Source: the human T2T-CHM13v2.0 reference genome, Homo sapiens
Direction of reading: 5' to 3'
NCBI GenBank assembly: GCA_009914755.4
Contig: CP086569.2
Coordinates: forward strand, 28,704,001-28,768,000
Length of the DNA stretch: 64,000 bases
A program made the position numbers and the translations under genes. The notes under the pieces were generated by a model. The model saw only the letters and a program-made list of their open reading frames with translations, had not been told where the DNA came from and searched no databases. Position 1 is the stretch's first letter. Every line of letters starts with the position of its first letter. Positions 6,688-45,449 of the stretch are shown in pieces.

Positions 6688-7159
6688 ATTCCAGTCCATT
6701 GCTTTCCAGTCCATTCCATTCCACTCTAGTCTATTCCACTCCATTCCTTTCCATTCCATTCCATACTATTCCATTCCATTCCTTTGCATTCCGTTTCCAA
6801 TCTATTCGAGTCCATTGCATTCCAGTCCAATCCATTCCATTACATTCCTTTTGATTCCCTGCCAGTCGATTGCATTGCATACTACACCATTCCAAAGGAG
6901 TCCATTCCATTCTATCTCAACACTTTCCATTCCACTCTGTTCGAGTCCATTCCATTCCAGTCCATTTAATTCAAGGGCATTCCATTCCATTCCATTCCAT
7001 TCCATTTCATATTATTCCATTCCATTCAATTCCATTCCAGATGATTCCATTCCATTCTATACCATTGCTCTCTGTTCCATTCCATTCCATCTGTCTCCAT
7101 TCCTTTCGTTTCGATTCCTTTCCATTCCATTCCATTCCATTTGATCCTATTTTATTAAG

Positions 7160-17200: not shown

Positions 17201-17850
17201 TCCATTCGAATCCATTCCATTCTAGTCCATTCCATTTGAGTCAATTCCATTCCATTCCATTCTATTCCTTTCCAATCCATTCGATTCCATTCGATTCAAT
17301 TCCATTTGATTCTCTTTCATTCTATTTTATTCCATGCCATTTGATTGCATTGCATTCCATTCCGTTTGATTCCAGTCCATTCAAGAAAGTTCCATTCCAG
17401 TCCATTGCTTTCCAGTCCATTCCATTCCACTCTAGTCTATTCCACTCCATTCCTTTCCATTCCATTCCATACTATTCCATTCCGTTTCCAATCTATTCGA
17501 GTCCATTGCATTCCAGTCCAATCCATTCGATTACATTCCTTTTGATTCCCTGCCAGTCGATTGCATTGCATACTACACCATTCCAAAGGAGTCCATTCCA
17601 TTCTATCTCAACACTTTCCATTCCACTCTGTTCGAGTCCATTCCATTCCAGTCCGTTTAATTCAAGGGCATTCCATTCCATTCCATTCCATTCCATTTCA
17701 TATTATTCCATTCCATTCAATTCCATTCCAGATGATTCCATTCCATTCTATACCATTGCTCTCTGTTCCATTCCATTCCATCTGTCTCCATTCCTTTCGT
17801 TTCGATTCCTTTCCATTCCATTCCATTCCATTTGATCCTATTTTATTAAG
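14297..17850 (+). repeat. HOR unit U5 (3,554 bp), A-type; carries a 15-bp (three-pentamer) deletion near 17471 and a TGA-removing substitution near 16891
   Basis: Landmark periodicity. Compared with other units it reads 'ccatactattccattccgtttcc' where they read 'ccatactattccattccattcctttgcattccgtttcc'. Confidence 0.75.
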
Positions 17851-20800: not shown

Positions 20801-21433
20801 CCATTCCATTTGAGTCAATTCCATTCCATTCCATTCTATTCCTTTCCAATCCATTCGATTCAATTCCATTTGATTCTCTTTCATTCTATTTTATTCCATG
20901 CCATTGATTGCATTGCATTCCATTCCGTTTGATTCCAGTCCATTCAAGAAAGTTCCATTCCAGTCCATTGCTTTCCAGTCCATTCCATTCCACTCTAGTC
21001 TATTCCACTCCATTCCTTTCCATTCCATTCCATACTATTCCATTCCATTCCTTTGCATTCCGTTTCCAATCTATTCGAGTCCATTGCATTCCAGTCCAAT
21101 CCATTCCATTACATTCCTTTTGATTCCCTGCCAGTCGATTGCATTGCATACTACACCATTCCAAAGGAGTCCATTCCATTCTATCTCAACACTTTCCATT
21201 CCACTCTGTTCGAGTCCATTCCATTCCAGTCCATTTAATTCAAGGGCATTCCATTCCATTCCATTCCATTCAATTCCATTTCATATTATTCCATTCCATT
21301 CAATTCCATTCCAGATGATTCCATTCCATTCTATACCATTGCTCTCTGTTCCCTTCCATTCCATCTGTCTCCATTCCTTTCGTTTCGATTCCTTTCCATT
21401 CCATTCCATTACATTTGATCCTATTTTATTAAA
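17851..21433 (+). repeat. HOR unit U6 (3,583 bp), A-type with small indels (10-bp deletion ~20853, 1-bp deletion ~20903, 5-bp pentamer insertion ~21270)
   Basis: Landmark periodicity and comparison with U4. Confidence 0.7.
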
Positions 21434-24400
21434 TTGCATTCTATTCGAGTGATTTCCATTCGAGTCCTTTCCATTCGATTCCATTCCATTCTATTCCATT
21501 CCTTTGGATTCCATTCCATTCCCTTCCGTTCACATCAATTCCTTGCGATTCCATTACATTCGATTTCTTGCCATTCGATTCCATTCCTTTTGACTCCATT
21601 TCATTCGATTCCATTCCATTCCATTAATTTCCATTCCATTCGAGACCATTCCATTGCAGTCTTTTCCCTTCGAGTCCATTCCGTTCGATTCCCTTCCATT
21701 CGATTCCATTCCATTGGAGTCCGTACCAGTCGAGTCCATTCTATTCCAGTCCATTAGTTTCGACTCCATTACATTCGAGTGCATTCCATTCCGTGGCTGT
21801 CCATTCCATTCCGTTTGATGCCATTCCATATGATTCCATTCAATTCGAGACCATTCTATTCCTGTCCATTCCTTGTGCTTCGATTCCATTTCACTCTAGT
21901 CCATTCCATTCCATTCAATTCCATTCGACTCTATTCCGTTCCATTCAATTCCATTCCATTCGATTCCATTTTTTTCGAGAACCTTCCATTACACTCCCTT
22001 CCATTCCAGTGCATTCCATTCCAGTCTCTTCAGTTCGATTCCATTCCATTCGTTTCGATTCCTTTCCATTCCAGCCCATTCCATTCCATTCCATTCCTTT
22101 CCTTTCCGTTTCATTAGATTCCATTGCATTCCATTCCATTCAATTCAATTCCGTGCTATTCAATTTGATTCATATCCATTTAATTCCATTCCATTAGATT
22201 CCATTCCGTACGATTCCATTCCTTTGGAATCCATTCCATTGGAGTCCATTCACTTCCAGAACATTCCATTCCAGTCGAATCCATTCGAGTACATTCCATT
22301 AAAGTTCATTACATTCTAATACATTCCATTCCATTGCATTCCATTCCATTCCATTCGATGCCATTCGATTCCATTCCATGCCAAATCATTGCATTCCTTT
22401 CCATTCCGTTCCTATCAATTCCATTCCATTCGATTTAGTTCGATTCTATTCACTTCCATTCCATTCGATTCCATTCCATTGGAGTCAATTCCTTTCGACA
22501 CCCAGCCTTTCCAGTCAATGATTTTGGAGTCCATTTTTTTGCATTCCATTACATTCTATGACATTCGATTCCGTTTCATTGCATTCCATTCCATACATTT
22601 TTATTCCATTCGAGACCGTAGCATTCCACTTTATTCCAGACCTGTCCATTACACTACATTCCCTTCCATTCCAATGAATTCCATTCCATTCCAATCCATT
22701 CCTTTCCTTTCGCTTGCATTCCATTCTATTCCCTTCTACTGCATACAATTTCACTCCATTCGTTCCCATTCCATTCAATTCCATTCCATTCAATTCCATT
22801 CCATTTGTTTCCATTCTCTTCGATTCCATTTCTTTATATTCCATGCCATTCGATTCCATTCTATTGGATTGCATTACATTCGTGTTCATTCCATTCCAGA
22901 CCATTCCATTTGACTCCATTCCTTTCGAGCCCTTTCAATTTGAGTCCATTCCTTTCCAGTCCAGTTCACTCCAGTCCATTACTATCCATTCCATACCATT
23001 CCATCCCATTCCATTCCATTCCATTCCATTCCATTCCATTCCATTCCATTGCATTCAATTCCATTCCATTCCATTGCACTGCACTCCATTCCATTACATT
23101 CTACTCTATCTGAGTCGGTTTTATTGCATTAGATTCTATTCCATTGGATTACTTTCCATTCGATTACATTCCATTCATGTACATTCCATTCCAGTCAATT
23201 ACATTCGAGTTCATTACATTACATTCCAGTATATTCCATTCTATTCGATCCCATTCCTTTCAATTCCATTTCATTCGACTCCATTATATTCGATTCCATT
23301 CCACTCGAATCCATTCCATTAGAGGACATTCCATTCCAATGCATTCCATTCCATTCCATAACATTCCATTGCATTCGATTCCATTCCATTTGATGCCATT
23401 CCATTTGATGCCATTCCATGACATTCCATTCCATTCGAGTCCATTCCGTTCCAATTCATTCCATTCCGTTTCATGAAATTCGAGTCCTTTCCAGTACATT
23501 TCATTCCAATCCCATCCAATCCAATCTACTCCATTCAATTCCTTTCCATTCCATTTGATTAGATTCCATTGATTTGATTCCATTCAGTTTGATTCCATTC
23601 CGTGAAATTTCGTTCCATTCTATTCCATTGCATTACTTTCCATTCAATTCCATTCCATTTCATTTCAGTCCATTCGCTTCCTTTCCTTTCGATTCAATTC
23701 CATTTGATTCCACTCCATTCTATGCGATTTCATTCCAATCGATTCAATTCCATTCGATGACATTCCTTTCGTTTCCATTCCATTCGAGTCCATTCAATTT
23801 GAGCATTCGTGTCCATTCTATTCGAGTCCATTCCATTTCCGTCTATTCTATTCCCTTCCATTCCTGTTGATTCAATTTCATTCCCTTCCATTCGATTCCT
23901 TTCCATTCGATTCCATTCCTTTCCATTCCATTCCATTCGTTCCCATTCCATGTGATTTCATTCCATTCCAGTCCATTATATTCGAGTCCACTCCACTCCA
24001 TTCTATTACATTCAATTCCTTTTGAGTCCGTTCCATAACACTCCATTCATTTCGCTTCCATTTCTTGCCAGTTTGCTTCCATTTTATTCCATTCCGTTCG
24101 ATTCCATTCCATTCGATTGCATTCCATTCGAATCCTTTCCATTCCATTTCATTCCATTCCTTTCTATTCCATTCCATTTCATTCGATTTGATTCCATTCT
24201 GTTCTATTCCATTCAATTCTTTTTCATTCCATTCGAATCCTTTCTATTGCAGTCCATTCCGTTCGAGTCCATTCCAATCCCTTCCATTCCATTCCATTAC
24301 AGTCCATTCCAATAGATTCCATTCCTTTGCCTTCCATTCGAATCCATTCCATTCTAGTCCATTCCATTTGAGTCAATTCCATTCCATTCCATTCTATTCC

Positions 24401-25012
24401 TTTCCAATCCATTAGATTCCATTCGATTCAATTCCATTTGATTCTCTTTCATTCTATTTTATTCCATGCCATTTGATTGCATTGCATTCCATTCCGTTTG
24501 ATTCCAGTCCATTCAAGAAAGTTCCATTCCAGTCCATTGCTTTCCAGTCCATTCCATTCCATTCTAGTCTATTCCACTCCATTCCTTTCCATTCCATTCC
24601 ATACTATTCCATTCCATTCTTTTGCATTCCGTTTCCAATCTATTCGAGTCCATTGCATTCCAGTCCAGTCCATTCCATTACATTCCTTTTGATTCCCTGC
24701 CAGTCGATTGCATTGCATACTACACCATTCCAAAGGAGTCCATTCCATTCTATCTCAACACTTTCCATTCCACTCTGTTCGAGTCCATTCCATTCCAGTC
24801 CATTTAATTCAAGGGCATTCCATTCCATTCCATTCCATTCCATTCCATTCCATTCCATTTCATATTATTCCATTCCATTCAATTCCATTCCAGATGATTC
24901 CATTCCATTCTATACCATTGCTCTCTGTTCCCTTCCATTCCATCTGTCTCCATTCCTTTCGTTTCGATTCCTTTCCATTCCATTCCATTACATTTGATCC
25001 TATTTTATTAAA
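21434..25012 (+). repeat. HOR unit U7 (3,579 bp), B-type (GGCC lost: 'ccagacctg' at 22636-22644)
   Basis: Landmark periodicity and shared variants with U8, U10 and U12. Confidence 0.75.
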
Positions 25013-28000
25013 TTGCATTCTATTCGAGTGATTTCCATTCGAGTCCTTTCCATTCGATTCCATTCCATTCTATTCCATTCCTTTGGATTCCATTCCATTC
25101 CCTTCCGTTCACATCAATTCCTTGCGATTCCATTACATTCGATTTCTTGCCATTCGATTCCATTCCTTTTGACTCCATTTCATTCGATTCCATTCCATTC
25201 CATTAATTTCCATTCCATTCGAGACCATTCCATTGCAGTCTTTTCCCTTCGAGTCCATTCCGTTCGATTCCCTTCCATTCGATTCCATTCCATTGGAGTC
25301 CGTACCAGTCGAGTCCATTCTATTCCAGTCCATTAGTTTCGACTCCATTACATTCGAGTGCATTCCATTCCGTGGCTGTCCATTCCATTCCGTTTGATGC
25401 CATTCCATACGATTCCATTCAATTCGAGACCATTCTATTCCTGTCCATTCCTTGTGCTTCGATTCCATTTCACTCTGGTCCATTCCATTCCATTCAATTC
25501 CATTCGACTCTATTCCGTTCCATTCAATTCCATTCCATTCGATTCCATTTTTTTCGAGAACCTTCCATTACACTCCCTTCCATTCCAGTGCATTCCATTC
25601 CAGTCTCTTCAGTTCGATTCCATTCCATTCGTTTCGATTCCTTTCCATTCCAGCCCATTCCATTCCATTCCATTCCTTTCCTTTCCGTTTCATTAGATTC
25701 CATTGCATTCCATTCCATTCAATTCAATTCCGTGCTATTCAATTTGATTCATATCCATTTAATTCCATTCCATTAGATTCCATTCCGTACGATTCCATTC
25801 CTTTGGAATCCATTCCATTGGAGTCCATTCACTTCCAGAACATTCCATTCCAGTCGAATCCATTCGAGTACATTCCATTAAAGTTCATTACATTCTAATA
25901 CATTCCATTCCATTGCATTCCATTCCATTCCATTCGATGCCATTCGATTCCATTCCATGCCAAATCATTGCATTCCTTTCCATTCCGTTCCTATCAATTC
26001 CATTCCATTCGATTTAGTTCGATTCTATTCACTTCCATTCCATTCGATTCCATTCCATTGGAGTCAATTCCTTTCGACACCCAGCCTTTCCAGTCAATGA
26101 TTTTGGAGTCCATTTTTTTGCATTCCATTACATTCTATGACATTCGATTCCGTTTCATTGCATTCCATTCCATACATTTTTATTCCATTCGAGACCGTAG
26201 CATTCCACTTTATTCCAGACCTGTCCATTACACTACATTCCCTTCCATTCCAATGAATTCCATTCCATTCCAATCCATTCCTTTCCTTTCGCTTGCATTC
26301 CATTCTATTCCCTTCTACTGCATACAATTTCACTCCATTCGTTCCCATTCCATTCAATTCCATTCCATTCAATTCCATTCCATTTGTTTCCATTCTCTTC
26401 GATTCCATTTCTTTATATTCCATGCCATTCGATTCCATTCTATTGGATTGCATGACTTTCGTGTTCATTCCATTCCAGACCATTCCATTTGACTCCATTC
26501 CTTTCGAGCCCTTTCAATTTGAGTCCATTCCTTTCCAGTCCATTTCACTCCAGTCCATTACTATCCATTCCATACCATTCCATCCCATTCCATTAAATTC
26601 CATTCCATTCCATTCCATTCCATTCCATTGCATTCCATTCCATTCCATTCCATTGCACTGCACTCCATTCCATTACATTCTACTCTATTTGAGTCGATTT
26701 TATTGCATTAGATTCTATTCCATTGGATTACTTTCCATTCGATTACATTCCATTCATGTACATTCCATTCCAGTCAATTACATTCGAGTTCATTACATTA
26801 CATTCCAGTATATTCCATTGTATTCGATCCCATTCCTTTCAATTCCATTTCATTCGACTCCATTATATTCGATTCCATTCCACTCGAATCCATTCCATTA
26901 GAGGACATTCCATTCCAATGCATTCCATTCCATTCCATAGCATTCCGTTGCATTCGATTCCATTCCATTTGATGCCATTCCATTTGATGCCATTCCATGA
27001 CATTCTATTCCATTCGAGTCCATTCCGTTCCAATTCATTCCATTCCGTTTCATGAAATTCGAGTCCTTTCCAGTACATTTCATTCCAATCCCATCCAATC
27101 CAATCTACTCCATTCAATTCCTTTCCATTCCATTTGATTAGATTCCATTGATTTGATTCCATTCAGTTTGATTCCATTCCGTGAAATTTCGTTCCATTCT
27201 ATTCCATTGCATTACTTTCCATTCAATTCCATTCCATTTCATTTCAGTCCATTCGATTCCTTTCCTTTCGATTCAATTCCATTTGATTCCACTCCATTCT
27301 ATGCGATTTCATTCCAATCGATTCAATTCCATTCGATGACATTCCTTTCGTTTCCATTCCATTCGAGTCCATTCAATTTGAGTATTCGTGTCCATTCAAT
27401 TCGAGTCCATTCCATTACCGTCTATTCTATTCCCTTCCATTCCTGTTGATTCAATTTCATTCCCTTCCATTCGATTCCTTTCCATTCAATTCCATTCCTT
27501 TCCATTCCATTCCATTCCTTCCCATTCCATGTGATTTCATTCCATTCCAGTCCATTATATTCGAGTCCACTCCACTCCATTCTATTACATTCAATTCCTT
27601 TTGAGTCCGTTCCATAACACTCCATTCATTTCGATTCCATTTCTTGCCAGTTTTCTTCCATTTTATTCCATTCCGTTCGATTCCATTCCATTCGATTGCA
27701 TTCCATTCGAATCCTTTCCATTCCATTTCATTCCATTCCTTTCTATTCCATTCCATTTCATTCGATTTGATTCCATTCTGTTCTATTCCATTCAATTCTT
27801 TTTCATTCCATTCGAATCCTTTCTATTGCAGTCCATTCCATTCGAGTCCATTCCAATCCCTTCCATTCCATTCCATTACAGTCCATTCCAATAGATTCCA
27901 TTCCTTTGCCTTCCATTCGAATCCATTCCATTCTAGTCCATTCCATTTGAGTCAATTCCATTCCATTCCATTCTATTCCTTTCCAATCCATTCGATTCCA

Positions 28001-29851
28001 TTCGATTCAATTCCATTTGATTCTCTTTCATTCTATTTTATTCCATGCCATTTGATTGCATTGCATTCCATTCCGTTTGATTCCAGTCCATTCAAGAAAG
28101 TTCCATTCCTGTCCATTTCTTTCCAGTCCATTCCATTCCACTCTAGTCTATTCCACTCCATTCCTTTCCATTCCATTCCATACTATTCCATTCCATTCCT
28201 TTGCATTCCGTTTGCAATCTATTCGAGTCCATTGCATTCCAGTCCAATCCATTCGATTACATTCCTTTTGATTCCCTGCCAGTCGATTGCATTGCATACT
28301 AGACCATTCCAAACGAGTCCATTCCATTCTATCTCAAAACTTTCCATTCCACTCTGTTCGAGTCCATTCCATTCCAGTCCATTTAATTCAAGGGCATTCC
28401 ATTCCATTCCATTCCATTCCATTTCATATTATTCCATTCCATTCAATTCCATTCCAGATGATTCCATTCCATTCTATACCATTGCTCTCTGTTCCATTCC
28501 ATTCCATCTGTCTCCATTCCTTTCGTTTCGATTCCTTTCCATTCCATTCCATTACATTTGATCCTATTTTATTAAATTGCATTCTATTCGAGTGATTTCC
28601 ATTCGAGTCCTTTCCATTCGATTCCATTCCATTCTATTCCATTCCTTTGGATTCCATTCCATTCCGTTCCGTTCACATCAATTCCTTGCGATTCCATTAC
28701 ATTCGATTTCTTGCCATTCGATTCCATTCCTTTTGACTCCATTTCATTCGATTCCATTCCATTCCATTAATTTCCATTCCATTCGAGACCTTTCCATTGC
28801 AGTCTTTTCCCTTCGAGTCCATTCCTTTCGATTCCCTTCCATTCGATTCCATTCCATTGGAGTCCGTACCAGTCGAGTCCATTCTATTCCAGTCCATTAG
28901 TTTCGACTCCATTGCATTCGAGTGCATTCCATTCCGTGGCTGTCCATTCCATTCCGTTTGATGCCATTCCATACGATTCCATTCAATTCGAGACCATTCT
29001 ATTCCTGTCCATTCCTTGTGGTTCGATTCCATTTCACTCTAGTCCATTCCATTCCATTCAATTCCATTCGACTCTATTCCGTTCCATTCAATTCCATTCC
29101 ATTCGATTCCATTTTTGTCGAGAACCTTCCATTACACTCCCTTCCATTCCAGTGCATTCCATTCCAGTCTCTTCAGTTCGATTCCATTCCATTCGTTTCG
29201 ATTCCTTTCCATTCCAGCCCATTCCATTCCATTCCTTTCCTTTCCGTTTCATTAGATTCCATTGCATTCGATTCCATTCAATTCAATTCCATGCTATTCA
29301 ATTTGATTCATTTCCATTTAATTCCATTCCATTAGATTCCATTCCGTACGATTCCATTCCTTTTGAATCCATTCCATTGGAGTCCATTCACTTCCAGAAC
29401 ATTCCATTCCAGTCGAATCCATTCGAGTACATTCCATTAAAGTTCATTAGATTCTAATACGTTCCATTCCATTGCATTCCATTCCATTCCATTCGATGCC
29501 ATTCGATTCCATTCCGTGCCAAATCATTGCATTCCTTTCCATTCCGTTCCTATCAATTCCATTCCATTCGATTTAGTTCGATTCTATTCACTTCCACTCC
29601 ATTCGATTCCATTCCATTGGAGTCAATTCCTTTCGACACCCAGCCTTTCCAGTCAATGATTTTGGATTCCATTTTTTTGCATTCCATTACATTCTATGAC
29701 ATTCGATTCCGTTTCATTGCATTCCATTCCATACATTTTTATTCCATTCGAGACCGTAGCATTCCACTTTATTCCAGGCCTGTCCATTACACTACATTCC
29801 CTTCCATTCCAATGAATTCCATTCCATTCCAATCCATTCCTTTCCTTTCGC
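22714..29851 (+). repeat. Dimeric (two-unit, 7,138-bp) nested HOR, copy 1
   Basis: ORF-track peptides at 22714, 23144, 23574, 24065, 24473, 25013, 25968, 26094 and 27153 recur identically at +7,138 bp. Confidence 0.65.
25013..28576 (+). repeat. HOR unit U8 (3,564 bp), B-type (GGCC lost)
   Basis: Landmark periodicity. Near-identical to U10 at +7,138 bp. Confidence 0.75.
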
Positions 29852-32150
29852 TTGCATTCCATTCTATTCCCTTCTACTGCATACAATTTCACTCCATTCG
29901 TTCCCATTCCATTCAATTCCATTCCATTCAATTCCATTCCATTTGTTTCCATTCTCTTCGATTCCATTTCTTTATATTCCATGCCATTCGATTCCATTCT
30001 ATTGGATTGCATTACATTCGTGTTCATTCCATTCCAGACCATTCCATTTGACTCCATTCCTTTCGAGCCCTTTCAATTTGAGTCCATTCCTTTCCAGTCC
30101 AGTTCACTCCAGTCCATTACTATCCATTCCATACCATTCCATCCCATTCCATTCCATTCCATTCCATTCCATTCCATTCCATTCCATTGCATTCAATTCC
30201 ATTCCATTCCATTGCACTGCACTCCATTCCATTACATTCTACTCTATCTGAGTCGGTTTTATTGCATTAGATTCTATTCCATTGGATTACTTTCCATTCG
30301 ATTACATTCCATTCATGTACATTCCATTCCAGTCAATTACATTCGAGTTCATTACATTACATTCCAGTATATTCCATTCTATTCGATCCCATTCCTTTCA
30401 ATTCCATTTCATTCGACTCCATTATATTCGATTCCATTCCACTCGAATCCATTCCATTAGAGGACATTCCATTCCAATGCATTCCATTCCATTCCATAAC
30501 ATTCCATTGCATTCGATTCCATTCCATTTGATGCCATTCCATTTGATGCCATTCCATGACATTCCATTCCATTCGAGTCCATTCCGTTCCAATTCATTCC
30601 ATTCCGTTTCATGAAATTCGAGTCCTTTCCAGTACATTTCATTCCAATCCCATCCAATCCAATCTACTCCATTCAATTCCTTTCCATTCCATTTGATTAG
30701 ATTCCATTGATTTGATTCCATTCAGTTTGATTCCATTCCGTGAAATTTCGTTCCATTCTATTCCATTGCATTACTTTCCATTCAATTCCATTCCATTTCA
30801 TTTCAGTCCATTCGCTTCCTTTCCTTTCGATTCAATTCCATTTGATTCCACTCCATTCTATGCGATTTCATTCCAATCGATTCAATTCCATTCGATGACA
30901 TTCCTTTCGTTTCCATTCCATTCGAGTCCATTCAATTTGAGCATTCGTGTCCATTCTATTCGAGTCCATTCCATTTCCGTCTATTCTATTCCCTTCCATT
31001 CCTGTTGATTCAATTTCATTCCCTTCCATTCGATTCCTTTCCATTCGATTCCATTCCTTTCCATTCCATTCCATTCGTTCCCATTCCATGTGATTTCATT
31101 CCATTCCAGTCCATTATATTCGAGTCCACTCCACTCCATTCTATTACATTCAATTCCTTTTGAGTCCGTTCCATAACACTCCATTCATTTCGCTTCCATT
31201 TCTTGCCAGTTTGCTTCCATTTTATTCCATTCCGTTCGATTCCATTCCATTCGATTGCATTCCATTCGAATCCTTTCCATTCCATTTCATTCCATTCCTT
31301 TCTATTCCATTCCATTTCATTCGATTTGATTCCATTCTGTTCTATTCCATTCAATTCTTTTTCATTCCATTCGAATCCTTTCTATTGCAGTCCATTCCGT
31401 TCGAGTCCATTCCAATCCCTTCCATTCCATTCCATTACAGTCCATTCCAATAGATTCCATTCCTTTGCCTTCCATTCGAATCCATTCCATTCTAGTCCAT
31501 TCCATTTGAGTCAATTCCATTCCATTCCATTCTATTCCTTTCCAATCCATTAGATTCCATTCGATTCAATTCCATTTGATTCTCTTTCATTCTATTTTAT
31601 TCCATGCCATTTGATTGCATTGCATTCCATTCCGTTTGATTCCAGTCCATTCAAGAAAGTTCCATTCCAGTCCATTGCTTTCCAGTCCATTCCATTCCAT
31701 TCTAGTCTATTCCACTCCATTCCTTTCCATTCCATTCCATACTATTCCATTCCATTCTTTTGCATTCCGTTTCCAATCTATTCGAGTCCATTGCATTCCA
31801 GTCCAGTCCATTCCATTACATTCCTTTTGATTCCCTGCCAGTCGATTGCATTGCATACTACACCATTCCAAAGGAGTCCATTCCATTCTATCTCAACACT
31901 TTCCATTCCACTCTGTTCGAGTCCATTCCATTCCAGTCCATTTAATTCAAGGGCATTCCATTCCATTCCATTCCATTCCATTCCATTCCATTCCATTTCA
32001 TATTATTCCATTCCATTCAATTCCATTCCAGATGATTCCATTCCATTCTATACCATTGCTCTCTGTTCCCTTCCATTCCATCTGTCTCCATTCCTTTCGT
32101 TTCGATTCCTTTCCATTCCATTCCATTACATTTGATCCTATTTTATTAAA
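28577..32150 (+). repeat. HOR unit U9 (3,574 bp), A-type (GGCC retained)
   Basis: Landmark periodicity. Near-identical to U11 at +7,137 bp. Confidence 0.75.
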
Positions 32151-35100
32151 TTGCATTCTATTCGAGTGATTTCCATTCGAGTCCTTTCCATTCGATTCCA
32201 TTCCATTCTATTCCATTCCTTTGGATTCCATTCCATTCCCTTCCGTTCACATCAATTCCTTGCGATTCCATTACATTCGATTTCTTGCCATTCGATTCCA
32301 TTCCTTTTGACTCCATTTCATTCGATTCCATTCCATTCCATTAATTTCCATTCCATTCGAGACCATTCCATTGCAGTCTTTTCCCTTCGAGTCCATTCCG
32401 TTCGATTCCCTTCCATTCGATTCCATTCCATTGGAGTCCGTACCAGTCGAGTCCATTCTATTCCAGTCCATTAGTTTCGACTCCATTACATTCGAGTGCA
32501 TTCCATTCCGTGGCTGTCCATTCCATTCCGTTTGATGCCATTCCATACGATTCCATTCAATTCGAGACCATTCTATTCCTGTCCATTCCTTGTGCTTCGA
32601 TTCCATTTCACTCTAGTCCATTCCATTCCATTCAATTCCATTCGACTCTATTCCGTTCCATTCAATTCCATTCCATTCGATTCCATTTTTTTCGAGAACC
32701 TTCCATTACACTCCCTTCCATTCCAGTGCATTCCATTCCAGTCTCTTCAGTTCGATTCCATTCCATTCGTTTCGATTCCTTTCCATTCCAGCCCATTCCA
32801 TTCCATTCCATTCCTTTCCTTTCCGTTTCATTAGATTCCATTGCATTCCATTCCATTCAATTCAATTCCGTGCTATTCAATTTGATTCATATCCATTTAA
32901 TTCCATTCCATTAGATTCCATTCCGTACGATTCCATTCCTTTGGAATCCATTCCATTGGAGTCCATTCACTTCCAGAACATTCCATTCCAGTCGAATCCA
33001 TTCGAGTACATTCCATTAAAGTTCATTACATTCTAATACATTCCATTCCATTGCATTCCATTCCATTCCATTCGATGCCATTCGATTCCATTCCATGCCA
33101 AATCATTGCATTCCTTTCCATTCCGTTCCTATCAATTCCATTCCATTCGATTTAGTTCGATTCTATTCACTTCCATTCCATTCGATTCCATTCCATTGGA
33201 GTCAATTCCTTTCGACACCCAGCCTTTCCAGTCAATGATTTTGGAGTCCATTTTTTTGCATTCCATTACATTCTATGACATTCGATTCCGTTTCATTGCA
33301 TTCCATTCCATACATTTTTATTCCATTCGAGACCGTAGCATTCCACTTTATTCCAGACCTGTCCATTACACTACATTCCCTTCCATTCCAATGAATTCCA
33401 TTCCATTCCAATCCATTCCTTTCCTTTCGCTTGCATTCCATTCTATTCCCTTCTACTGCATACAATTTCACTCCATTCGTTCCCATTCCATTCAATTCCA
33501 TTCCATTCAATTCCATTCCATTTGTTTCCATTCTCTTCGATTCCATTTCTTTATATTCCATGCCATTCGATTCCATTCTATTGGATTGCATGACTTTCGT
33601 GTTCATTCCATTCCAGACCATTCCATTTGACTCCATTCCTTTCGAGCCCTTTCAATTTGAGTCCATTCCTTTCCAGTCCATTTCACTCCAGTCCATTACT
33701 ATCCATTCCATACCATTCCATCCCATTCCATTAAATTCCATTCCATTCCATTCCATTCCATTCCATTGCATTCCATTCCATTCCATTCCATTGCACTGCA
33801 CTCCATTCCATTACATTCTACTCTATTTGAGTCGATTTTATTGCATTAGATTCTATTCCATTGGATTACTTTCCATTCGATTACATTCCATTAATGTACA
33901 TTCCATTCCAGTCAATTACATTCGAGTTCATTAGATTACATTCCAGTATATTCCATTCTATTTGATCCCATTCCTTTCAATTCCATTTCATTCGACTCCA
34001 TTATATTCGATTCCATTCCACTCGAATCCATTCCATTAGAGGACATTCCATTCCAATGCATTCCATTCCATTCCATAGCATTCCATTGCATTCGATTCCA
34101 TTCCATTTGATGCCATTCCATTTGATGCCATTCCATGACATTCCATTCCATTCGAGTCCATTCCGTTCCAATTCATTCCATTCCGTTTCATGAAATTCGA
34201 GTCCTTTCCAGTACATTTCATTCCAATCCCATCCAATCCAATCTACTCCATTCAATTCCTTTCCATTCCATTTGATTAGATTCCATTGATTTGATTCCAT
34301 TCAGTTTGATTCCATTCCGTGAAATTTCGTTCCATTCTATTCCATTGCATTACTTTCCATTCAATTCCATTCCATTTCATTTCAGTCCATTCGATTCCTT
34401 TCCTTTCGATTCAATTCCATTTGATTCCACTCCATTCTATGCGATTTCATTCCAATCGATTCAATTCCATTCGATGACATTCCTTTCGTTTCCATTCCAT
34501 TCGAGTCCATTCAATTTGAGTATTCGTGTCCATTCAATTCGAGTCCATTCCATTACCGTCTATTCTATTCCCTTCCATTCCTGTTGATTCAATTTCATTC
34601 CCTTCCATTCGATTCCTTTCCATTCAATTCCATTCCTTTCCATTCCATTCCATTCCTTCCCATTCCATGTGATTTCATTCCATTCCAGTCCATTATATTC
34701 GAGTCCACTCCACTCCATTCTATTACATTCAATTCCTTTTGAGTCCGTTCCATAACACTCCATTCATTTCGATTCCATTTCTTGCCAGTTTTCTTCCATT
34801 TTATTCCATTCCGTTCGATTCCCTTCCATTCGATTGCATTCCATTCGAATCCTTTCCATTCCATTTCATTCCATTCCTTTCTATTCCATTCCATTTCATT
34901 CGATTTGATTCCATTCTGTTCTATTCCATTCAATTCTTTTTCATTCCATTCGAATCCTTTCTATTGCAGTCCATTCCATTCGAGTCCATTCCAATCCCTT
35001 CCATTCCATTCCATTACAGTCCATTCCAATAGATTCCATTCCTTTGCCTTCCATTCGAATCCATTCCATTCTAGTCCATTCCATTTGAGTCAATTCCATT

Positions 35101-36988
35101 CCATTCCATTCTATTCCTTTCCAATCCATTCGATTCCATTCGATTCAATTCCATTTGATTCTCTTTCATTCTATTTTATTCCATGCCATTTGATTGCATT
35201 GCATTCCATTCCGTTTGATTCCAGTCCATTCAAGAAAGTTCCATTCCAGTCCATTGCTTTCCAGTCCATTCCATTCCACTCTAGTCTATTCCACTCCATT
35301 CCTTTCCATTCCATTCCATACTATTCTATTCCATTCCTTTGCATTCCGTTTGCAATCTATTCGAGTCCATTGCATCCAGTCCAATCCATTCGATTACATT
35401 CCTTTTGATTCCCTGCCAGTCGATTGCATTGCATACTAGACCATTCCAAACGAGTCCATTCCATTCTATCTCAAAACTTTCCATTCCACTCTGTTCGAGT
35501 CCATTCCATTCCAGTCCATTTAATTCAAGGGCATTCCATTCCATTCCATTCCATTCCATTTCATATTATTCCATTCCATTCAATTCCATTCCAGATGATT
35601 CCATTCCATTCTATACCATTGCTCTCTGTTCCATTCCATTCCATCTGTCTCCATTCCTTTCGTTTCGATTCCTTTCCATTCCATTCCATTACATTTGATC
35701 CTATTTTATTAAATTGCATTCTATTCGAGTGATTTCCATTCGAGTCCTTTCCATTCGATTCCATTCCATTCTATTCCATTCCTTTGGATTCCATTCCATT
35801 CCGTTCCGTTCACATCAATTCCTTGCGATTCCATTACATTCGATTTCTTGCCATTCGATTCCATTCCTTTTGACTCCATTTCATTCGATTCCATTCCATT
35901 CCATTAATTTCCATTCCATTCGAGACCTTTCCATTGCAGTCTTTTCCCTTCGAGTCCATTCCGTTCGATTCCCTTCCATTCGATTCCATTCCATTGGAGT
36001 CCGTACCAGTCGAGTCCATTCTATTCCAGTCCATTAGTTTCGACTCCATTGCATTCGAGTGCATTCCATTCCGTGGCTGTCCATTCCATTCCGTTTGATG
36101 CCATTCCATACGATTCCATTCAATTCGAGACCATTCTATTCCTGTCCATTCCTTGTGGTTCGATTCCATTTCACTCTAGTCCATTCCATTCCATTCAATT
36201 CCATTCGACTCTATTCCGTTCCATTCAATTCCATTCCATTCGATTCCATTTTTGTCGAGAACCTTCCATTACACTCCCTTCCATTCCAGTGCATTCCATT
36301 CCAGTCTCTTCAGTTCGATTCCATTCCATTCGTTTCGATTCCTTTCCATTCCAGCCCATTCCATTCCATTCCTTTCCTTTCCGTTTCATTAGATTCCATT
36401 GCATTCGATTCCATTCAATTCAATTCCATGCTATTCAATTTGATTCATTTCCATTTAATTCCATTCCATTAGATTCCATTCCGTACGATTCCATTCCTTT
36501 TGAATCCATTCCATTGGAGTCCATTCACTTCCAGAACATTCCATTCCAGTCGAATCCATTCGAGTACATTCCATTAAAGTTCATTAGATTCTAATACGTT
36601 CCATTCCATTGCATTCCATTCCATTCCATTCGATGCCATTCGATTCCATTCCGTGCCAAATCATTGCATTCCTTTCCATTCCGTTCCTATCAATTCCATT
36701 CCATTCGATTTAGTTCGATTCTATTCACTTCCACTCCATTCGATTCCATTCCATTGGAGTCAATTCCTTTCGACACCCAGCCTTTCCAGTCAATGATTTT
36801 GGATTCCATTTTTTTGCATTCCATTACATTCTATGACATTCGATTCCGTTTCATTGCATTCCATTCCATACATTTTTATTCCATTCGAGACCGTAGCATT
36901 CCACTTTATTCCAGGCCTGTCCATTACACTACATTCCCTTCCATTCCAATGAATTCCATTCCATTCCAATCCATTCCTTTCCTTTCGC
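29852..36988 (+). repeat. Dimeric nested HOR, copy 2
   Basis: Offset 7,137-7,138 bp from copy 1 with only a few substitutions. Confidence 0.65.
32151..35713 (+). repeat. HOR unit U10 (3,563 bp), B-type; 2-bp deletion near 35375
   Basis: Landmark periodicity. Reads 'ccattgcatccagtcc' where U8 reads 'ccattgcattccagtcc'. Confidence 0.75.
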
Positions 36989-39232
36989 TTGCATTCCATT
37001 CTATTCCCTTCTACTGCATACAATTTCACTCCATTCGTTCCCATTCCATTCAATTCCATTCCATTCAATTCCATTCCATTTGTTTCCATTCTCTTCGATT
37101 CCATTTCTTTATATTCCATGCCATTCGATTCCATTCTATTGGAATGCGTTACATTCGTGTTCATTCCATTCCAGACCATTCCATTTGACTCCATTCCTTT
37201 CGAGCCCTTTCAATTTGAGTCCATTCCTTTCCAGTCCATTTCACTCCAGTCCATTACTATCCATTGCATACCATTCCATCCCATTCCATTCCATTCCATT
37301 CCATTCCATTCCATTCCATTCCATTGCACTGCACTCCATTCCATTACATTCTACTCTATCTGAGTCGGTTTTATTGCATTAGATTCTATTCCATTGGATT
37401 ACTTTCCATTCGATTACATTCCATTCATGTACATTCCATTCCAGTCAATTACATTCGAGTTCATTACATTACATTCCAGTATATTCCATTCTATTCGATC
37501 CCATTCCTTTCAATTCCATTTCATTCGACTCCATTATATTCGATTCCATTCCACTCAAATCCATTCCATTAGAGGACATTCCATTCCAATGCATTCCATT
37601 CCATTCCATAACATTCCATTGCATTCGATTCCATTCCATTTGATGCCATTCCATGACATTCCATTCCATTCGAGTCCATTCCGTTCCAATTCATTCCATT
37701 CCATTTCATGAAATTCGAGTCCTTTCCAGTACATTTCATTCCAATCCCATCCAATCCAATCTACTCCATTCAATTCCTTTCCATTCCATTTGATTAGATT
37801 CCATTGATTTGATTCCATTCAGTTTGATTCCATTCCGTGAAATTTCGTTCCATTCTATTCCATTGCATTACTTTCCATTCAATTCCATTCCATTTCATTT
37901 CAGTCCATTCGCTTCCTTTCCTTTCGATTCAATTCCATTTGATTCCACTCCATTCTATGCGATTTCATTCCAATCGATTCAATTCCATTCGATGACATTC
38001 CTTTCGTTTCCATTCCATTCGAGTCCATTCAATTTGAGCATTCGTGTCCATTCTATTCGAGTCCATTCCATTTCCGTCTATTCTATTCCCTTCCATTCCT
38101 GTTGATTCAATTTCGTTCCCTTCCATTCGATTCCTTTCCATTCGATTCCATTCCTTTCCATTCCATTCCATTCGTTCCCATTCCATGTGATTTCATTCCA
38201 TTCCAGTCCATTATATTCGAGTCCACTCCACTCCATTCTATTACATTCAATTCCTTTTGAGTCCGTTCCATAACACTCCATTCATTTCGATTCCATTTCT
38301 TGCCAGTTTTCTTCCATTTTATTCCATTCCGTTCGATTCCATTCCATTCGATTGCATTCCATTCGAATCCTTTCCATTCCATTTCATTCCATTCCTTTCT
38401 ATTCCATTCCATTTCATTCGATTTGATTCCATTCTGTTCTATTCCATTCAATTCTTTTTCATTCCATTCGAATCCTTTCTATTGCAGTCCATTCCATTCG
38501 AGTCCATTCCAATCCCTTCCATTCCATTCCATTACAGTCCATTCCAATAGATTCCATTCCTTTGCCTTCCATTCGAATCCATTCCATTCTAGTCCATTCC
38601 ATTTGAGTCAATTCCATTCCATTCCATTCTATTCCTTTCCAATCCATTAGATTCCATTCGATTCAATTCCATTTGATTCTCTTTCATTCTATTTTATTCC
38701 ATGCCATTTGATTGCATTGCATTCCATTCCGTTTGATTCCAGTCCATTCAAGAAAGTTCCATTCCATTCCATTGCTTTCCAGTCCATTCCATTCCATTCT
38801 AGTCTATTCCACTCCATTCCTTTCCATTCCATTCCATACTATTCCATTCCATTCTTTTGCATTCCGTTTCCAATCTATTCGAGTCCATTGCATTCCAGTC
38901 CAGTCCATTCCATTACATTCCTTTTGATTCCCTGCCAGTCGATTGCATTGCATACTACACCATTCCAAACGAGTCCATTCCATTCTATCTCAACACTTTC
39001 CATTCCACTCTGTTCGAGTCCATTCCATTCCAGTCCATTTAATTCAAGGGCATTCCATTCCATTCCATTCCATTCCATTTCATATTATTCCATTCCATTC
39101 AATTCCATTCCAGATGATTCCATTCCATTCTATACCATTGCTCTCTGTTCCCTTCCATTCCATCTGTCTCCATTCCTTTCGTTTCGATTCCTTTCCATTC
39201 CATTCCATTACATTTGATCCTATTTTATTAAA
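35714..39232 (+). repeat. HOR unit U11 (3,519 bp), A-type, shortened pure-pentamer tracts
   Basis: Landmark periodicity. About 45 bp shorter than typical units. Confidence 0.75.
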
Positions 39233-41050
39233 TTGCATTCTATTCGAGTGATTTCCATTCGAGTCCTTTCCATTCGATTCCGTTCCATTCTATTCCATTC
39301 CTTTGGATTCCATTCCATTCCGTTCCGTTCACATCAATTCCTTGCGATTCCATTCCATTCGATTTCTTGCCATTCGATTCCATTCCTTTTGACTCCATTT
39401 CATTCGATTCCATTCCATTCCATTAATTTCCATTCCATTCGAGACCATTCCATTGCAGTCTTTTCCCTTCGAGTCCATTCCGTTCGATTCCCTTCCATTC
39501 GATTCCATTCCATTGGAGTCCGTACCAGTCGAGTCCATTCTATTCCAGTCCATTAGTTTCGACTCCATTACATTCGAGTGCATTCCATTCCGTGGCTGTC
39601 CATTCCATTCCGTTTGATGCCATTCCATACGATTCCATTCAATTCGAGACCATTCTATTCCTGTCCATTCCTTGTGCTTCGATTCCAATTCACTCTAGTC
39701 CATTCCATTCCATTCAATTCCATTCGACTCTATTCCGTTCCATTCAATTCCATTCCATTCGATTCCATTTTTTTCGAGAACCTTCCATTACACTCCCTTC
39801 CATTCCAGTGCATTCCATTCCAGTCTCTTCAGTTCGATTCCATTCCATTCGTTTCGATTCCTTTCCATTCCAGCCCATTCCATTCCATTCCATTCCTTTC
39901 CTTTCCGTTTCATTAGATTCCATTGCATTCCATTCCATTCAATTCAATTCCGTGCTATTCAATTTGATTCATATCCATTTAATTCCATTCCATTAGATTC
40001 CATTCCGTACGATTCCATTCCTTTGGAATCCATTCCAATGGAGTCCATTCACTTCCAGAACATTCCATTCCAGTCGAATCCATTCGAGTACATTCCATTA
40101 AAGTTCATTACATTCTAATACATTCCATTCCATTGCATTCCATTCCATTCCATTCGATGCCATTCGATTCCATTCCATGCCAAATCATTGCATTCCTTTC
40201 CATTCCGTTCCTATCAATTCCATTCCATTCGATTTAGTTCGATTCTATTCACTTCCATTCCATTCGATTCCATTCCATTGGAGTCAATTCCTTTCGACAC
40301 CCAGCCTTTCCAGTCAATGATTTTGGATTCCATTTTTTTGCATTCCATTACATTCTATGACATTCGATTCCGTTTCATTGCATTCCATTCCATACATTTT
40401 TATTCCATTCGAGACCGTAGCATTCCACTTTATTCCAGACCTGTCCATTACACTACATTCCCTTCCATTCCAATGAATTCCATTCCATTCCAATCCATTC
40501 CTTTCCTTTCGCTTGCATTCCATTCTATTCCCTTCTACTGCATACAATTTCACTCCATTCGTTCCCATTCCATTCAATTCCATTCCATTCAATTCCATTC
40601 CATTTGTTTCCATTCTCTTCGATTCCATTTCTTTATATTCCATGCCATTCGATTCCATTCTATTGAATTGCATTACTTTCGTGTTCATTCCATTCCAGAC
40701 CATTCCATTTGACTCCATTCTTTCGAGCCCTTTCAATTTGAGTCCATTCCTTTCCAGTCCATTTCACTCCAGTCCATTACTATCCATTCCATACCATTCC
40801 ATCCCATTCCATTAAATTCCATTCCATTCCATTCCATTCCATTGCATTCCATTCCATTCCATTCCATTGCACTGCACTCCATTCCATTACATTCTACTCT
40901 ATTTGAGTCGATTTTATTGCATTAGATTCTATTCCATTGGATTACTTTCCACTCGATTACATTCCATTCATGTACATTCCATTCCAGTCAATTACATTCG
41001 ACTTTGTTACATTGCACTCCAGTATATTCCATTCTATTCGATCCCATTCC
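36989..41050 (+). repeat. Dimeric nested HOR, copy 3 (more diverged, truncated by the U12 deletion)
   Basis: Shares derived variants with copy 2 (for example 'FFCIPF' and 'SSPVHS' in the 38708 and 31611 peptides) but at roughly 98-99% similarity. Confidence 0.5.
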
Positions 41051-41905
41051 TTTCCATTCCATTTCATTCCATTCCTTCTTATTCCATTCCGTTTCATTCG
41101 ATTTGATTCCATTCTGTTCTATTCCATTCAATTCTTTTTCATTCCATTCGAATCTTTCTATTGCAGTACATTCAATTCGAGTCCATTCCAATCCCTTCCA
41201 TTCCATTCCATTACAGTCCATTCCAATAGATTCTATTCTTTTGCCTTCCATTCGAATCCATTCCATTCTAGTCCATTCCATTTGAGTCAATTCCATTCCA
41301 TTCCATTCTATTCCTTTCCAATCCATTCGATTCCATTCGATTCAATTCCATTTGATTCTCTTTCATTCTATTTTATTCCATGCCATTTGATTGCATTGCA
41401 TTCCATTCCGTTTGATTCCAGTCCATTCAAGAAAGTTCCATTCCAGTCCATTGCTTTCGTGTCCATTCCATTCCACTCTAGTCTATTCCACTGCATTCCT
41501 TTCCATTCCATTCCATACTATTCCATTCCATTCCTTTGCATTCCGTTTGCAATCTATTCGAGTCCATTGCATTCCAGTCCAATCCATTCGATTACATTCC
41601 TTTTGATTCCCTGCCAGTCGATGCATTGCATATTAGACCATTCCAAAGGAGTCCATTCCATTCTATTTCAACACTTTCCATTCCAGTCTGTTCGAGTCCA
41701 TTCCATTCCAGTCCATTTAATTCAAGGGCATTCCATTCCATTCCATTCCATATCATATTATTCCATTCCATTCAATTCCATTCCAGATGATTCCATTCCA
41801 TTCTATACCATTGCTCTCTGTTCCATTCCATTCCATCTGTCTCCATTCCTTTCGTTTCGATTCCTTTCCATTCCATTCCATTACATTTCATCCTATTTTA
41901 TTAAA
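39233..41905 (+). repeat. HOR unit U12 (2,673 bp), B-type with ~0.87-0.89-kb internal deletion (junction ~41046-41075)
   Basis: Unit is about 890 bp short. Sequence colinear with other units up to 'gatcccattcctttc', then resumes at 'cattccatttcattccattcc', which normally lies about 870 bp downstream. Confidence 0.75.
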
Positions 41906-44900: not shown

Positions 44901-45449
44901 CTCTTTCATTCTATTTTATTCCATGCCATTTGATTGCATTGCATTCCATTCCGTTTGATTCCAGTCCATTCAAGAAAGTTCCATTCCAGTCCATTGCTTT
45001 CGAGTCCATTCCATTCCACTCTAGTCTATTCCACTCCATTTCTTTCCATTCCATTCCATACTATTCCATTCCATTCCTTTGCATTCCGTTTCTAATCTAT
45101 TCGAGTCGATTGCATTCCAGTCCAATCCATTCGATTACATTCCTTTTGATTCCCTGCCAGTCGATTGCATTGCATATTAGACCATTCCAAAGGAGTCCAT
45201 TCCATTCTATTTCAACACTTTCCATTCCACTCTGTTCGAGTCCATTCCATTCCAGTCCATTTAATTCAAGGGCATTCCATTCCATTCCATTCCATATCAT
45301 ATTATTCCATTCCATTCAATTCCATTCCAGATGATTCCATTCCATTCTATACCATTGCTCTCTGTTCCATTCCATTCCATCTGTCTCCATTCCTTTCGTT
45401 TCGATTCCTTTCCATTCCATTCCATTACATTTGATCCTATTTTACTAAA
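41906..45449 (+). repeat. HOR unit U13 (3,544 bp), diverged C-type
   Basis: Landmark periodicity. Carries many private substitutions shared only with U14, for example 'ggagtgcgtacc' and 'ttcgaaacctttcc'. Confidence 0.7.

What the first reader, a model, noticed from the sequence alone, without database searches (positions are those of the whole stretch)
22714..41050. Nested dimeric (7.14-kb) higher-order repeat in the middle of the window
From ~22.7 kb, peptides in the ORF track recur identically at +7,138 bp (e.g. 24065 and 31203; 24473 and 31611; 25968 and 33106; 26094 and 33232). A third, more diverged copy follows with offset 7,082-7,097 bp. This corresponds to alternating B-type units (GGCC lost: 'ccagacctg' at 22636-22644) and A-type units. 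So at least three hierarchy levels coexist in one array: 5 bp, 3.56 kb, 7.14 kb, and 48.96 kb. In the dimer region HaeIII would cut out 7.1-kb rather than 3.56-kb fragments.
Basis: seen in the sequence. Interest (0 to 1): 0.55.

Follow-up and report, generated by a model that had tools for sequence, protein, structure and literature searches.

The report
Local two-unit duplication in Y-chromosome satellite
The window is the well-known human Y-chromosome DYZ1 satellite, and the 7.14-kb periodicity is real but is a short, local run of about three copies of a two-unit block, which is the ordinary footprint of unequal exchange in a tandem array.

Summary
From 22,641 to about 37,100 the sequence repeats at +7,138 bp with 99.80% identity (14 differences; longest exact run 2,836 bp). 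Neighbouring 3.56-kb units there are only 98.6% alike. A third, more diverged copy follows: U11 is 99.4% identical to U9, at offsets 7,137 falling to 7,082.

The whole window is human Y DYZ1 (HSat3A6). It derives from the TTCCA pentamer and has 3.55-3.58-kb HaeIII units. Eight published DYZ1 primers hit about once per unit at the published positions. An HSat3A6-specific 24-mer is present, while 24-mers of 12 other HSat subfamilies are absent.

The units form two types, alpha (U7, U9, U11 and the tail of U6) and beta (U8, U10 and the head of U12), with bootstrap support of 94-100%. The lost HaeIII site (GACC) goes with the alpha tail.

The periodicity covers about 2.8 dimers (~20 kb) and nothing else in the window. 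U12 as a whole clusters with U13, not with beta. HaeIII yields a single 7,137-bp alpha-beta fragment; the others are 10,721, 6,197 and 7,088 bp. The alpha and beta private variants are missing from 55 independent DYZ1 fragments.

The best explanation is stepwise unequal sister-chromatid exchange or gene conversion in a two-unit register. This is ordinary satellite dynamics and of low interest.

The parts
1..64000 (+). Human Y-chromosome DYZ1 (HSat3A6) satellite array, TTCCA strand. It holds 17 complete units of ~3.56 kb (U1-U17, starting at 1208, 4767, 8335, 11908, 15472, 19026, 22609, 26188, 29747, 33326, 36884, 40408, 43081, 46625, 50169, 53723, 57291) and two partial units (U0, U18).
   Evidence: TRF finds period 5 (TTCCA) over 53-63971. 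A 61-nt anchor defines the unit starts. DYZ1 primers and the HSat3A6 24-mer match. GC is 0.38-0.40.
21100..22640 (+). Alpha-like 3' tail of hybrid unit U6, ending in the mutated HaeIII site GACC (22639-22642). This is the left edge of the dimer domain. The start coordinate is approximate.
   Evidence: U6 shares the alpha variants from alignment column ~2107 onward. It has 0-2 differences per 400 bp from U7 in columns 2400-3619. Lag-1 differences drop to 2-3 per kb at 21.5-22.5 kb. Tail type and site state are linked.
22641..26219 (+). Alpha unit, copy 1 (body of U7). It ends in GACC, so HaeIII does not cut.
   Evidence: 99.94% identical to copy 2. 20 of 20 alpha-diagnostic alleles.
26220..29778 (+). 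Beta unit, copy 1 (body of U8). It ends in an intact GGCC at 29777-29780.
   Evidence: 99.69% identical to U10. 24 of 24 beta-diagnostic alleles.
29779..33357 (+). Alpha unit, copy 2 (body of U9). It ends in GACC.
33358..36915 (+). Beta unit, copy 2 (body of U10). It ends in GGCC at 36914-36917. Together, 29779-36915 is the single 7,137-bp HaeIII alpha-beta fragment.
36916..40439 (+). Alpha unit, copy 3 (body of U11), more diverged: 18 substitutions and deletions of 25, 15 and 15 bp relative to U9. It ends in GACC.
   Evidence: 99.4% identical to U9. 13 of 20 alpha alleles. {U7,U9,U11} has 94% bootstrap support.
40440..41090 (+). Beta-like head of the truncated mosaic unit U12. This is the right edge of the dimer domain. 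The end coordinate, at the ~900-bp deletion, is approximate.
   Evidence: The first 350 columns differ from U8/U10 at 2 positions, against 12-13 from U13/U14. Alignment columns 712-1632 are deleted.
26755..28826 (+). Core of beta copy 1, which holds 12 of the 14 differences between dimer copies 1 and 2. Its partner is 33893-35963.
48957..64000 (+). Second copy of the ~48.96-kb (14-unit) block. It repeats 1-15044 with only three differences.

Best explanation
The window is a stretch of the human Y-chromosome heterochromatic satellite DYZ1 (HSat3A6). Its 3.56-kb HaeIII units are themselves built from degenerate TTCCA pentamers. Between ~21.1 and ~41.1 kb two slightly different unit variants alternate, about 1.4% apart: alpha, whose 3' end has lost the HaeIII site (GGCC to GACC), and beta, which keeps it. 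The order is alpha-tail, alpha, beta, alpha, beta, alpha, beta-head. The pattern was produced by misaligned exchange between sister chromatids, or within one chromatid, with pairing two units (7,138 bp) out of register, and this happened at least twice. An older event or events generated three alpha-beta dimers that are now ~0.6% apart. A later exchange or conversion in the same register homogenised ~5 kb of dimers 1 and 2 to about 1 difference in 5 kb. After that, a 14-unit (~49 kb) block of the array was duplicated (99.98% identity). The dimer has no specific function. It is a historical footprint of how the array expands and homogenises. What is shown: the identities, the unit types, the linkage of the site to the unit tail, and the order of divergences. 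What is inferred: the mechanism (unequal exchange or gene conversion) and the order of events.
For: Identity as DYZ1. The TTCCA period spans the whole window. HaeIII spacing is 3,554-3,573 bp in the regular part. Eight primers published for the 3,564-bp DYZ1 unit (PMC3925983) hit about once per unit, on the expected strand and at the published positions. The HSat3A6 24-mer from PMC4022460 occurs 30 times, and 24-mers of 12 other subfamilies occur 0 times. 55 in-register fragments recovered from contaminated microbial and metagenome contigs are mostly 96-99.6% identical, down to ~90.5% for a few short ones.

Dimer. Identity at lag 7,138 is 99.80%, against 98.6% at lag 1. The diagnostic columns alternate perfectly. 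Bootstrap support is {U7,U9} 99.7%, {U8,U10} 100%, {U6,U7,U9,U11} 99%. The site state follows the tail of the preceding unit in 11 of 11 junctions.

Graded ages. Alpha versus beta 1.4%; dimer 3 versus dimer 2 0.6%; the beta core of dimers 1 and 2 0.58%; the rest of dimers 1 and 2 ~0.02%; the 49-kb copies 0.02%.

Hybrid boundary units (U6, U12) are what crossover junctions would leave.

Literature. [quoted passage not shown] De novo changes consistent with gene conversion have been reported in Yq12 (10.64898/2026.06.03.729890).
Against: The mechanism is inferred from the pattern alone; no exchange was observed. A single duplication event does not fit: 12 of the 14 differences cluster in 2.07 kb (post-hoc scan P ~4e-4), so the two-step history is an added assumption. 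Only one haplotype and 64 kb are available. The region between 15 and 49 kb is seen only once, so whether the dimer domain recurs in other 49-kb blocks is unknown. Assembly errors in so repetitive a region cannot be excluded without reads.
Confidence: 0.85

Rival explanations
1. An established dimeric higher-order repeat: the alpha-beta dimer is the real homogenisation unit of a large DYZ1 sub-array, and the window shows only a small, partly degraded piece of it.
For: Three consecutive dimers appear in the alpha units and in the HaeIII site pattern. Exchange in the two-unit register seems to have happened more than once. The whole domain lies inside a 49-kb block that is itself repeated, so it may recur outside the window.
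Against: Lag-2 identity exceeds lag-1 only for U7-U9; the other 12 unit positions show no alternation. U12 does not cluster with beta (0% bootstrap). The alpha and beta private alleles are essentially absent from 55 external DYZ1 fragments, apart from single isolated alleles in a few of them. The GACC variant appears in 0 of 42 external sites, although the search pattern allowed either base. That external sample is small and biased towards consensus, because most of it comes from collapsed short-read assemblies.
Confidence: 0.1
2. Assembly artefact: the near-identical 7.14-kb copies, and/or the 49-kb copies, are a false duplication produced when a highly repetitive satellite was assembled.
For: Identity is very high (99.80% and 99.98%) in a region known to be hard to assemble. 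An external 7,186-bp contig (L027) turned out to be exactly such an artefact: two identical units with a 48-bp terminal overlap.
Against: The two dimer copies differ at 14 positions, and these are private to one copy or the other. The copies sit between distinct flanking units, U6 and U11, which are themselves related but diverged. That graded, tree-like pattern is what history produces and not what a duplicated contig produces.
Confidence: 0.04
3. Pure gene conversion with no change in copy number: the units were already in place, and long conversion tracts between units two positions apart created the lag-2 similarity.
For: Identity is patchy. Near-identical tracts of 4.1 kb and 1.2 kb flank a 2.07-kb core that is 0.58% diverged. 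De novo events in Yq12 consistent with gene conversion have been reported.
Against: It does not explain why alpha and beta alternate in the first place, nor the three-fold repetition. The tracts, 4.1 and 1.2 kb in exactly the same register, are long for conversion. It may still account for the latest homogenisation step, and in that role it is already part of the best explanation.
Confidence: 0.3

Closest known systems
DYZ1 / HSat3A6, the 3.56-kb HaeIII male-specific repeat of human Yq12
   Same: Pentamer TTCCA base, ~3.56-kb HaeIII unit, GC ~38-39%, primer sites, and the subfamily-specific 24-mer. Identity to independent DYZ1 copies is mostly 96-99.6%. [quoted passage not shown]
   Different: Nothing at the family level. 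This stretch carries local private variants (alpha, beta, and the diverged U12-U14) and one truncated unit.
Iterative tandem duplications in Yq12 reported for T2T-Y (unequal exchange)
   Same: Nested duplications of whole numbers of units, with identity that depends on their age. [quoted passage not shown]
   Different: The scale. Here the events involve 1 unit (U2/U3, 99.7%), 2 units (7.14 kb) and 14 units (49 kb), far below the 2,000-mer dot-plot scale discussed there. I found no explicit description of a 7.1-kb DYZ1 dimer in the searchable library.
Alpha-satellite dimeric and multimeric higher-order repeats
   Same: The logic is the same: units of distinct types in a fixed order, with copies of the multimer more alike than its constituent units.
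   Different: Alpha-satellite higher-order repeats run to hundreds or thousands of copies, with 20-40% divergence between monomers. Here there are ~2.8 copies, 1.4% divergence between units, and a 3.56-kb 'monomer' that is itself a higher-order unit of pentamers.
Higher-order repeats of six ~3.5-kb units in the human MaLR LTR arrays (PMC2588610)
   Same: Kilobase-scale units are grouped into a higher-order unit, and individual arrays show gain or loss of units by unequal crossing-over.
   Different: The sequence family is unrelated. Those repeats are marked by a transposon insertion and recur on several chromosomes.

Membership tests
DYZ1 / HSat3A6 (human Yq12 satellite) | Derived from tandem TTCCA (CATTC/GGAAT) pentamers | tested here: met
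   TRF finds period 5 with consensus TTCCA over 53-63971.
DYZ1 / HSat3A6 (human Yq12 satellite) | ~3.56-kb unit bounded by one HaeIII (GGCC) site | tested here: met
   GGCC spacing is 3,554-3,573 bp wherever the site is intact. One site-bearing anchor per unit, 18 anchors in all.
DYZ1 / HSat3A6 (human Yq12 satellite) | Published DYZ1 primer sites at the published positions and orientations within the unit | tested here: met
   Primers A-H of PMC3925983, Table 5, each hit 15-19 times with at most 2 errors, on the expected strand only and within ~25 bp of the published coordinates. Truncated or indel-bearing units (U12 especially) deviate further.
DYZ1 / HSat3A6 (human Yq12 satellite) | Subfamily-specific 24-mer present and those of other HSat2/3 subfamilies absent | tested here: met
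   The HSat3A6 24-mer has 30 hits and the 12 other subfamily 24-mers have 0. Only one example 24-mer per subfamily was available.
DYZ1 / HSat3A6 (human Yq12 satellite) | High identity to independently sequenced DYZ1 copies | tested here: met
   In-register identity to human-derived contaminant contigs is mostly 96-99.6% (down to ~90.5% for a few short fragments), against ~70% out of register.
DYZ1 / HSat3A6 (human Yq12 satellite) | Male-specific, located at Yq12, alternating with DYZ2 blocks | not testable with these tools
   No human reference genome is available here, and no DYZ2 or flanking sequence lies in the window.
Higher-order repeat in the satellite sense | Copies of the multimer are more alike than its adjacent constituent units | tested here: met
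   99.80% (dimer 1 vs 2) and 99.4% (U9 vs U11), against 98.6% for alpha vs beta.
Higher-order repeat in the satellite sense | Constituent unit types recur in a fixed order and cluster by type in a tree | tested here: inconclusive
   The alpha clade {U6,U7,U9,U11} has 99% support and the beta clade {U8,U10} 100%. The third 'beta', U12, groups with U13 (93%), and only its first 350 bp is beta-like.
Higher-order repeat in the satellite sense | The multimer is tandemly reiterated many times and dominates the array | tested here: not met
   There are about 2.8 copies. No lag-2 excess is seen at the other 12 unit positions of the window. The alpha and beta alleles are essentially absent from 55 external fragments.

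The most novel reading that the evidence does not exclude
The alpha-beta dimer may be an emerging, actively homogenised higher-order unit of one DYZ1 block. Exchange in the 7.14-kb register has occurred repeatedly, and the whole dimer domain is being propagated by the 49-kb duplication. That block of Yq12 would then carry a four-level nested periodicity (5 bp, 3.56 kb, 7.14 kb, 49 kb), and that periodicity could serve as a lineage-specific marker of Y heterochromatin evolution.
Probability: 0.2. Interest if true: 0.3.

Novelty: already known. Interest (0 to 1): 0.12.

Why it matters
It matters little beyond bookkeeping. The result shows at base resolution, within one 64-kb stretch, how the DYZ1 array grows and homogenises through exchanges in registers of 1, 2 and 14 units. 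Recent complete Y assemblies already attribute this process to unequal exchange. Two practical points follow. First, loss of the HaeIII site in alpha tails means that virtual or real HaeIII digests will give multimers of 7.1, 10.7 and 6.2 kb. These should not be mistaken for a different repeat family. Second, private variants such as the alpha and beta alleles could serve as markers to trace block duplications within Yq12 across Y haplogroups.

Tried and rejected
1. A DYZ1 primer pair recalled from memory (TCCACTTTATTCCAGGCCTGTCC / TTGAATGGAATGGGAACGAATGG) could not be found in the paper library. I did not use it as evidence and used the primers printed in PMC3925983 instead.

2. The external 7,186-bp contig L027 looked like an independent dimer. 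Its two units are identical and its ends overlap by 48 bp, so it is an assembly artefact and says nothing.

3. The long-read metagenome contig L010 (three units) is too noisy, with 46-60 gap events per unit pair, to test lag-2 against lag-1.

4. A fuzzy regex search for degenerate anchors in the external loci timed out. BLAST and MAFFT replaced it.

5. The fixed-lag sliding alignment gives meaningless values (~200 differences per kb) once a target falls across the 900-bp deletion in U12. These occur at query positions from ~30 kb (lag 3), ~33.5 kb (lag 2) and ~37 kb (lag 1). Only the values before those points were used.

6. I first read the A/G difference between U7 and U9 at the HaeIII site as marking a crossover junction at 29779-30006. 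I dropped this once the site state proved to follow the tail of the preceding unit.

7. A single-event duplication model was rejected because 12 of the 14 differences cluster in 2.07 kb.

8. Literature searches for a described DYZ1 HaeIII dimer found nothing relevant.
Full report
**What the window is.** The whole 64-kb window is one tandem array derived from the pentamer TTCCA; TRF reports period 5 over 53-63971. GC content is a uniform 0.38-0.40 and strand asymmetry is strong. Exact 24-mer matches pile up at multiples of ~3.56 kb. A 61-nt anchor around the HaeIII site occurs 18 times and defines units U1-U18 of 3,524-3,583 bp. One unit, U12, is truncated to 2,673 bp, and there are two partial end units.

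This is the human Y-chromosome satellite DYZ1 (HSat3A6), on four lines of evidence.
- Eight primers published for the 3,564-bp DYZ1 HaeIII unit (PMC3925983, Table 5) hit about once per unit, only on the expected strand, and within ~25 bp of their published positions in full-length units.
- The HSat3A6-specific 24-mer listed in PMC4022460 occurs 30 times, while the example 24-mers of 12 other HSat2/3 subfamilies occur 0 times.
- A 34-nt pattern around the site retrieved 35 loci from bacterial genome assemblies and metagenomes. These are human contaminants. Their in-register identity to unit U4 is mostly 96-99.6%, against ~70% out of register.

The chromosomal location itself cannot be tested with these tools.

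**Checking the observation.** Over 22641-28236 the ungapped identity at lag 7,138 is 99.80%, against 65-80% at the one-unit lags. The longest exact run is 2,836 bp. A gapped alignment of 22609-29746 with 29747-36883 shows 14 differences in 7,138 bp.

In the unit matrix, U7-U9 are 99.94% identical, U8-U10 99.69% and U9-U11 99.43%, while neighbouring units in this region are 98.6% alike.

**Anatomy.** A neighbour-joining tree of the 17 complete units, with 300 bootstrap replicates, gives these groups:
- a canonical group (U1-U5, U15-U17);
- an alpha clade {U6,U7,U9,U11} at 99%, with {U7,U9,U11} at 94% and {U7,U9} at 99.7%;
- a beta clade {U8,U10} at 100%;
- a diverged group {U12,U13,U14} at 100%.

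U12 never joins the beta clade (0%). Segment-wise comparison shows why. Its first 350 columns differ from U8/U10 at only 2 positions, against 12-13 from U13/U14. Its 3' third is closest to U13, and about 900 bp in between is deleted. U6 is also a hybrid: its 3' part from column ~2107 is alpha. The domain therefore reads alpha-tail (U6), alpha, beta, alpha, beta, alpha, beta-head (U12). That is about 2.8 dimers over ~21.1-41.1 kb.

The HaeIII site state looked inconsistent at first, because U7 starts with GACC and the near-identical U9 starts with GGCC. It becomes fully consistent once the site is assigned to the end of the preceding unit: every alpha tail is followed by GACC and every beta tail by GGCC, in 11 of 11 junctions. 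The in-silico HaeIII fragments across the region are 10,721 bp (U6+U7+U8), 7,137 bp (the one canonical alpha-beta dimer), 6,197 bp (U11 plus the truncated U12) and 7,088 bp (U13+U14). The last arises from a different mutation, GCCC.

**How local it is.** Lag-2 identity exceeds lag-1 only for U7, U8 and U9. At the other twelve positions the difference is zero or negative. In 55 in-register DYZ1 fragments from other people's DNA, the alpha-private and beta-private alleles are essentially absent. Only a few positions that are polymorphic across DYZ1 in general (534, 777, 2154, 3142) are shared. None of the 42 external sites carries GACC, although the search pattern allowed A or G. That sample is small, and much of it comes from collapsed short-read assemblies, so it is biased towards consensus. 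It still gives no sign that alpha and beta are widespread DYZ1 subtypes.

**History and mechanism (inferred).** The divergences are graded:
- alpha versus beta, 1.4%;
- third dimer versus second, 0.6%;
- first versus second dimer, 0.2% overall;
- the two copies of the 48.96-kb, 14-unit block (1-15044 versus 48957-64000), 0.02%, or 3 events in 15 kb.

The 14 differences between dimers 1 and 2 are not evenly spread. Twelve lie in a 2.07-kb tract in the beta core (26755-28826). One lies in the preceding 4.1 kb, one is the site position itself at 22640, and none lies in the following 1.2 kb. A post-hoc scan statistic gives P ~4e-4. All twelve are singletons private to U8 or U10 and are essentially unseen in external copies. 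The divergence of that core, 0.58%, equals the U9-U11 divergence.

The simplest account has two steps. First, amplification of the alpha-beta dimer to three copies. Later, a second exchange or long conversion in the same 7,138-bp register homogenised about 5 kb of dimers 1 and 2. The 49-kb block duplication came last.

The hybrid units U6 and U12 are what crossover junctions at the edges of such a domain would look like. Elsewhere in the window a one-unit event is visible (U2-U3, 99.7%). All of this fits unequal sister-chromatid or intrachromatid exchange with gene conversion. The T2T-Y authors propose the same process for Yq12, where they also observed sister-chromatid exchanges, and a 2026 pedigree study reports de novo changes in Yq12 consistent with conversion. 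No exchange was observed here, so the mechanism is inferred from the pattern.

**Rivals.**
- An established array-wide dimeric higher-order repeat is not supported within the window. It cannot be excluded outside it, because the dimer domain lies in the part of the 49-kb block that the window shows only once.
- An assembly artefact is unlikely given the 14 private differences and the graded, tree-like relationships. Read-level data are needed to exclude it.
- Pure gene conversion may explain the latest homogenisation but not the alternation itself.

**Comparison with what is known, and novelty.** Membership in DYZ1/HSat3A6 passes every test that could be run. As a higher-order repeat, the dimer meets the criterion that copies are more alike than their constituent units. 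It fails the criterion of many reiterated copies dominating the array. I found no explicit description of a 7.1-kb DYZ1 dimer in the searchable library. Even so, local duplications of whole numbers of units are the expected and already reported behaviour of this satellite. I rate the finding as already known in kind and of low interest (0.12). The most novel reading still open is that this is an emerging higher-order unit propagated with the 49-kb block. I give that a probability of about 0.2, and it would be of modest interest even if true.

Noticed in passing
window 1-15044 vs 48957-64000: A ~48.96-kb (14-unit) block is repeated with only 3 differences in 15 kb (99.98%): G>A at 172/49133, a 5-bp CCATT indel at 1605, and C>A at 12294/61250. 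It is the youngest event visible in the window.
   Followed up: partly
window 40408-43080 (U12): This unit is truncated to 2,673 bp by a ~900-bp deletion (alignment columns 712-1632). It is a mosaic, beta-like at the 5' end and U13-like at the 3' end.
   Followed up: yes
window 43081-50168 (U13, U14): Two units are ~3% diverged from all the others (96.4-97.5%). U14 has a different HaeIII-site mutation (GCCC at ~46655), which gives a 7,088-bp HaeIII fragment unrelated to the alpha-beta dimer. U14 is 99.9% identical to the partial U0, its partner in the 49-kb repeat.
   Followed up: partly
window 4767-11907 (U2, U3) and 53723-60863 (U16, U17): Adjacent units U2 and U3 are 99.7% identical, with 1-4 differences per kb at lag 3,568-3,573. 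This is a recent one-unit duplication or homogenisation, and the 49-kb duplication copied it along.
   Followed up: partly
window 26755-28826 / 33893-35963: Twelve of the 14 differences between dimer copies 1 and 2 cluster in a 2.07-kb tract of the beta core. All are private singletons, six in U8 and six in U10. The post-hoc scan gives P ~4e-4. No single-event model explains this.
   Followed up: partly
whole window: Short-range autocorrelation is highest at 15 bp (0.689), then 30 bp (0.667) and 45 bp (0.650), all above 5 bp (0.644). This suggests a 15-bp (three-pentamer) sub-periodicity inside the 3.56-kb unit.
   Followed up: no
whole window (unit alignment): Among biallelic substitution columns of U1-U14, transversions outnumber transitions (169 to 119). 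That is unusual for human germline variation. It may reflect the constrained pentamer context, or conversion among pentamer variants.
   Followed up: no
L001-L006 (e.g. BMRF01000076.1 Actinomadura cremea JCM 3308; BNBB01000077.1 Streptosporangium violaceochromogenes; BMTN01000077.1 Streptomyces kurssanovii; NZ_JBFAJD010000109.1 Streptomyces sp.): Contigs in public bacterial genome assemblies are human DYZ1, 98-99.6% identical to the window's units. This is human Y-satellite contamination of the type the T2T-Y paper describes. Several contigs are ~3.6 kb, that is, one collapsed unit.
   Followed up: partly
L027 (ERZ1036477 NODE-110, 7,186 bp): This metagenome contig has two DYZ1 units that are identical to each other, and its ends overlap by 48 bp. 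It is a two-lap assembly artefact of a collapsed repeat, not a real dimer.
   Followed up: yes
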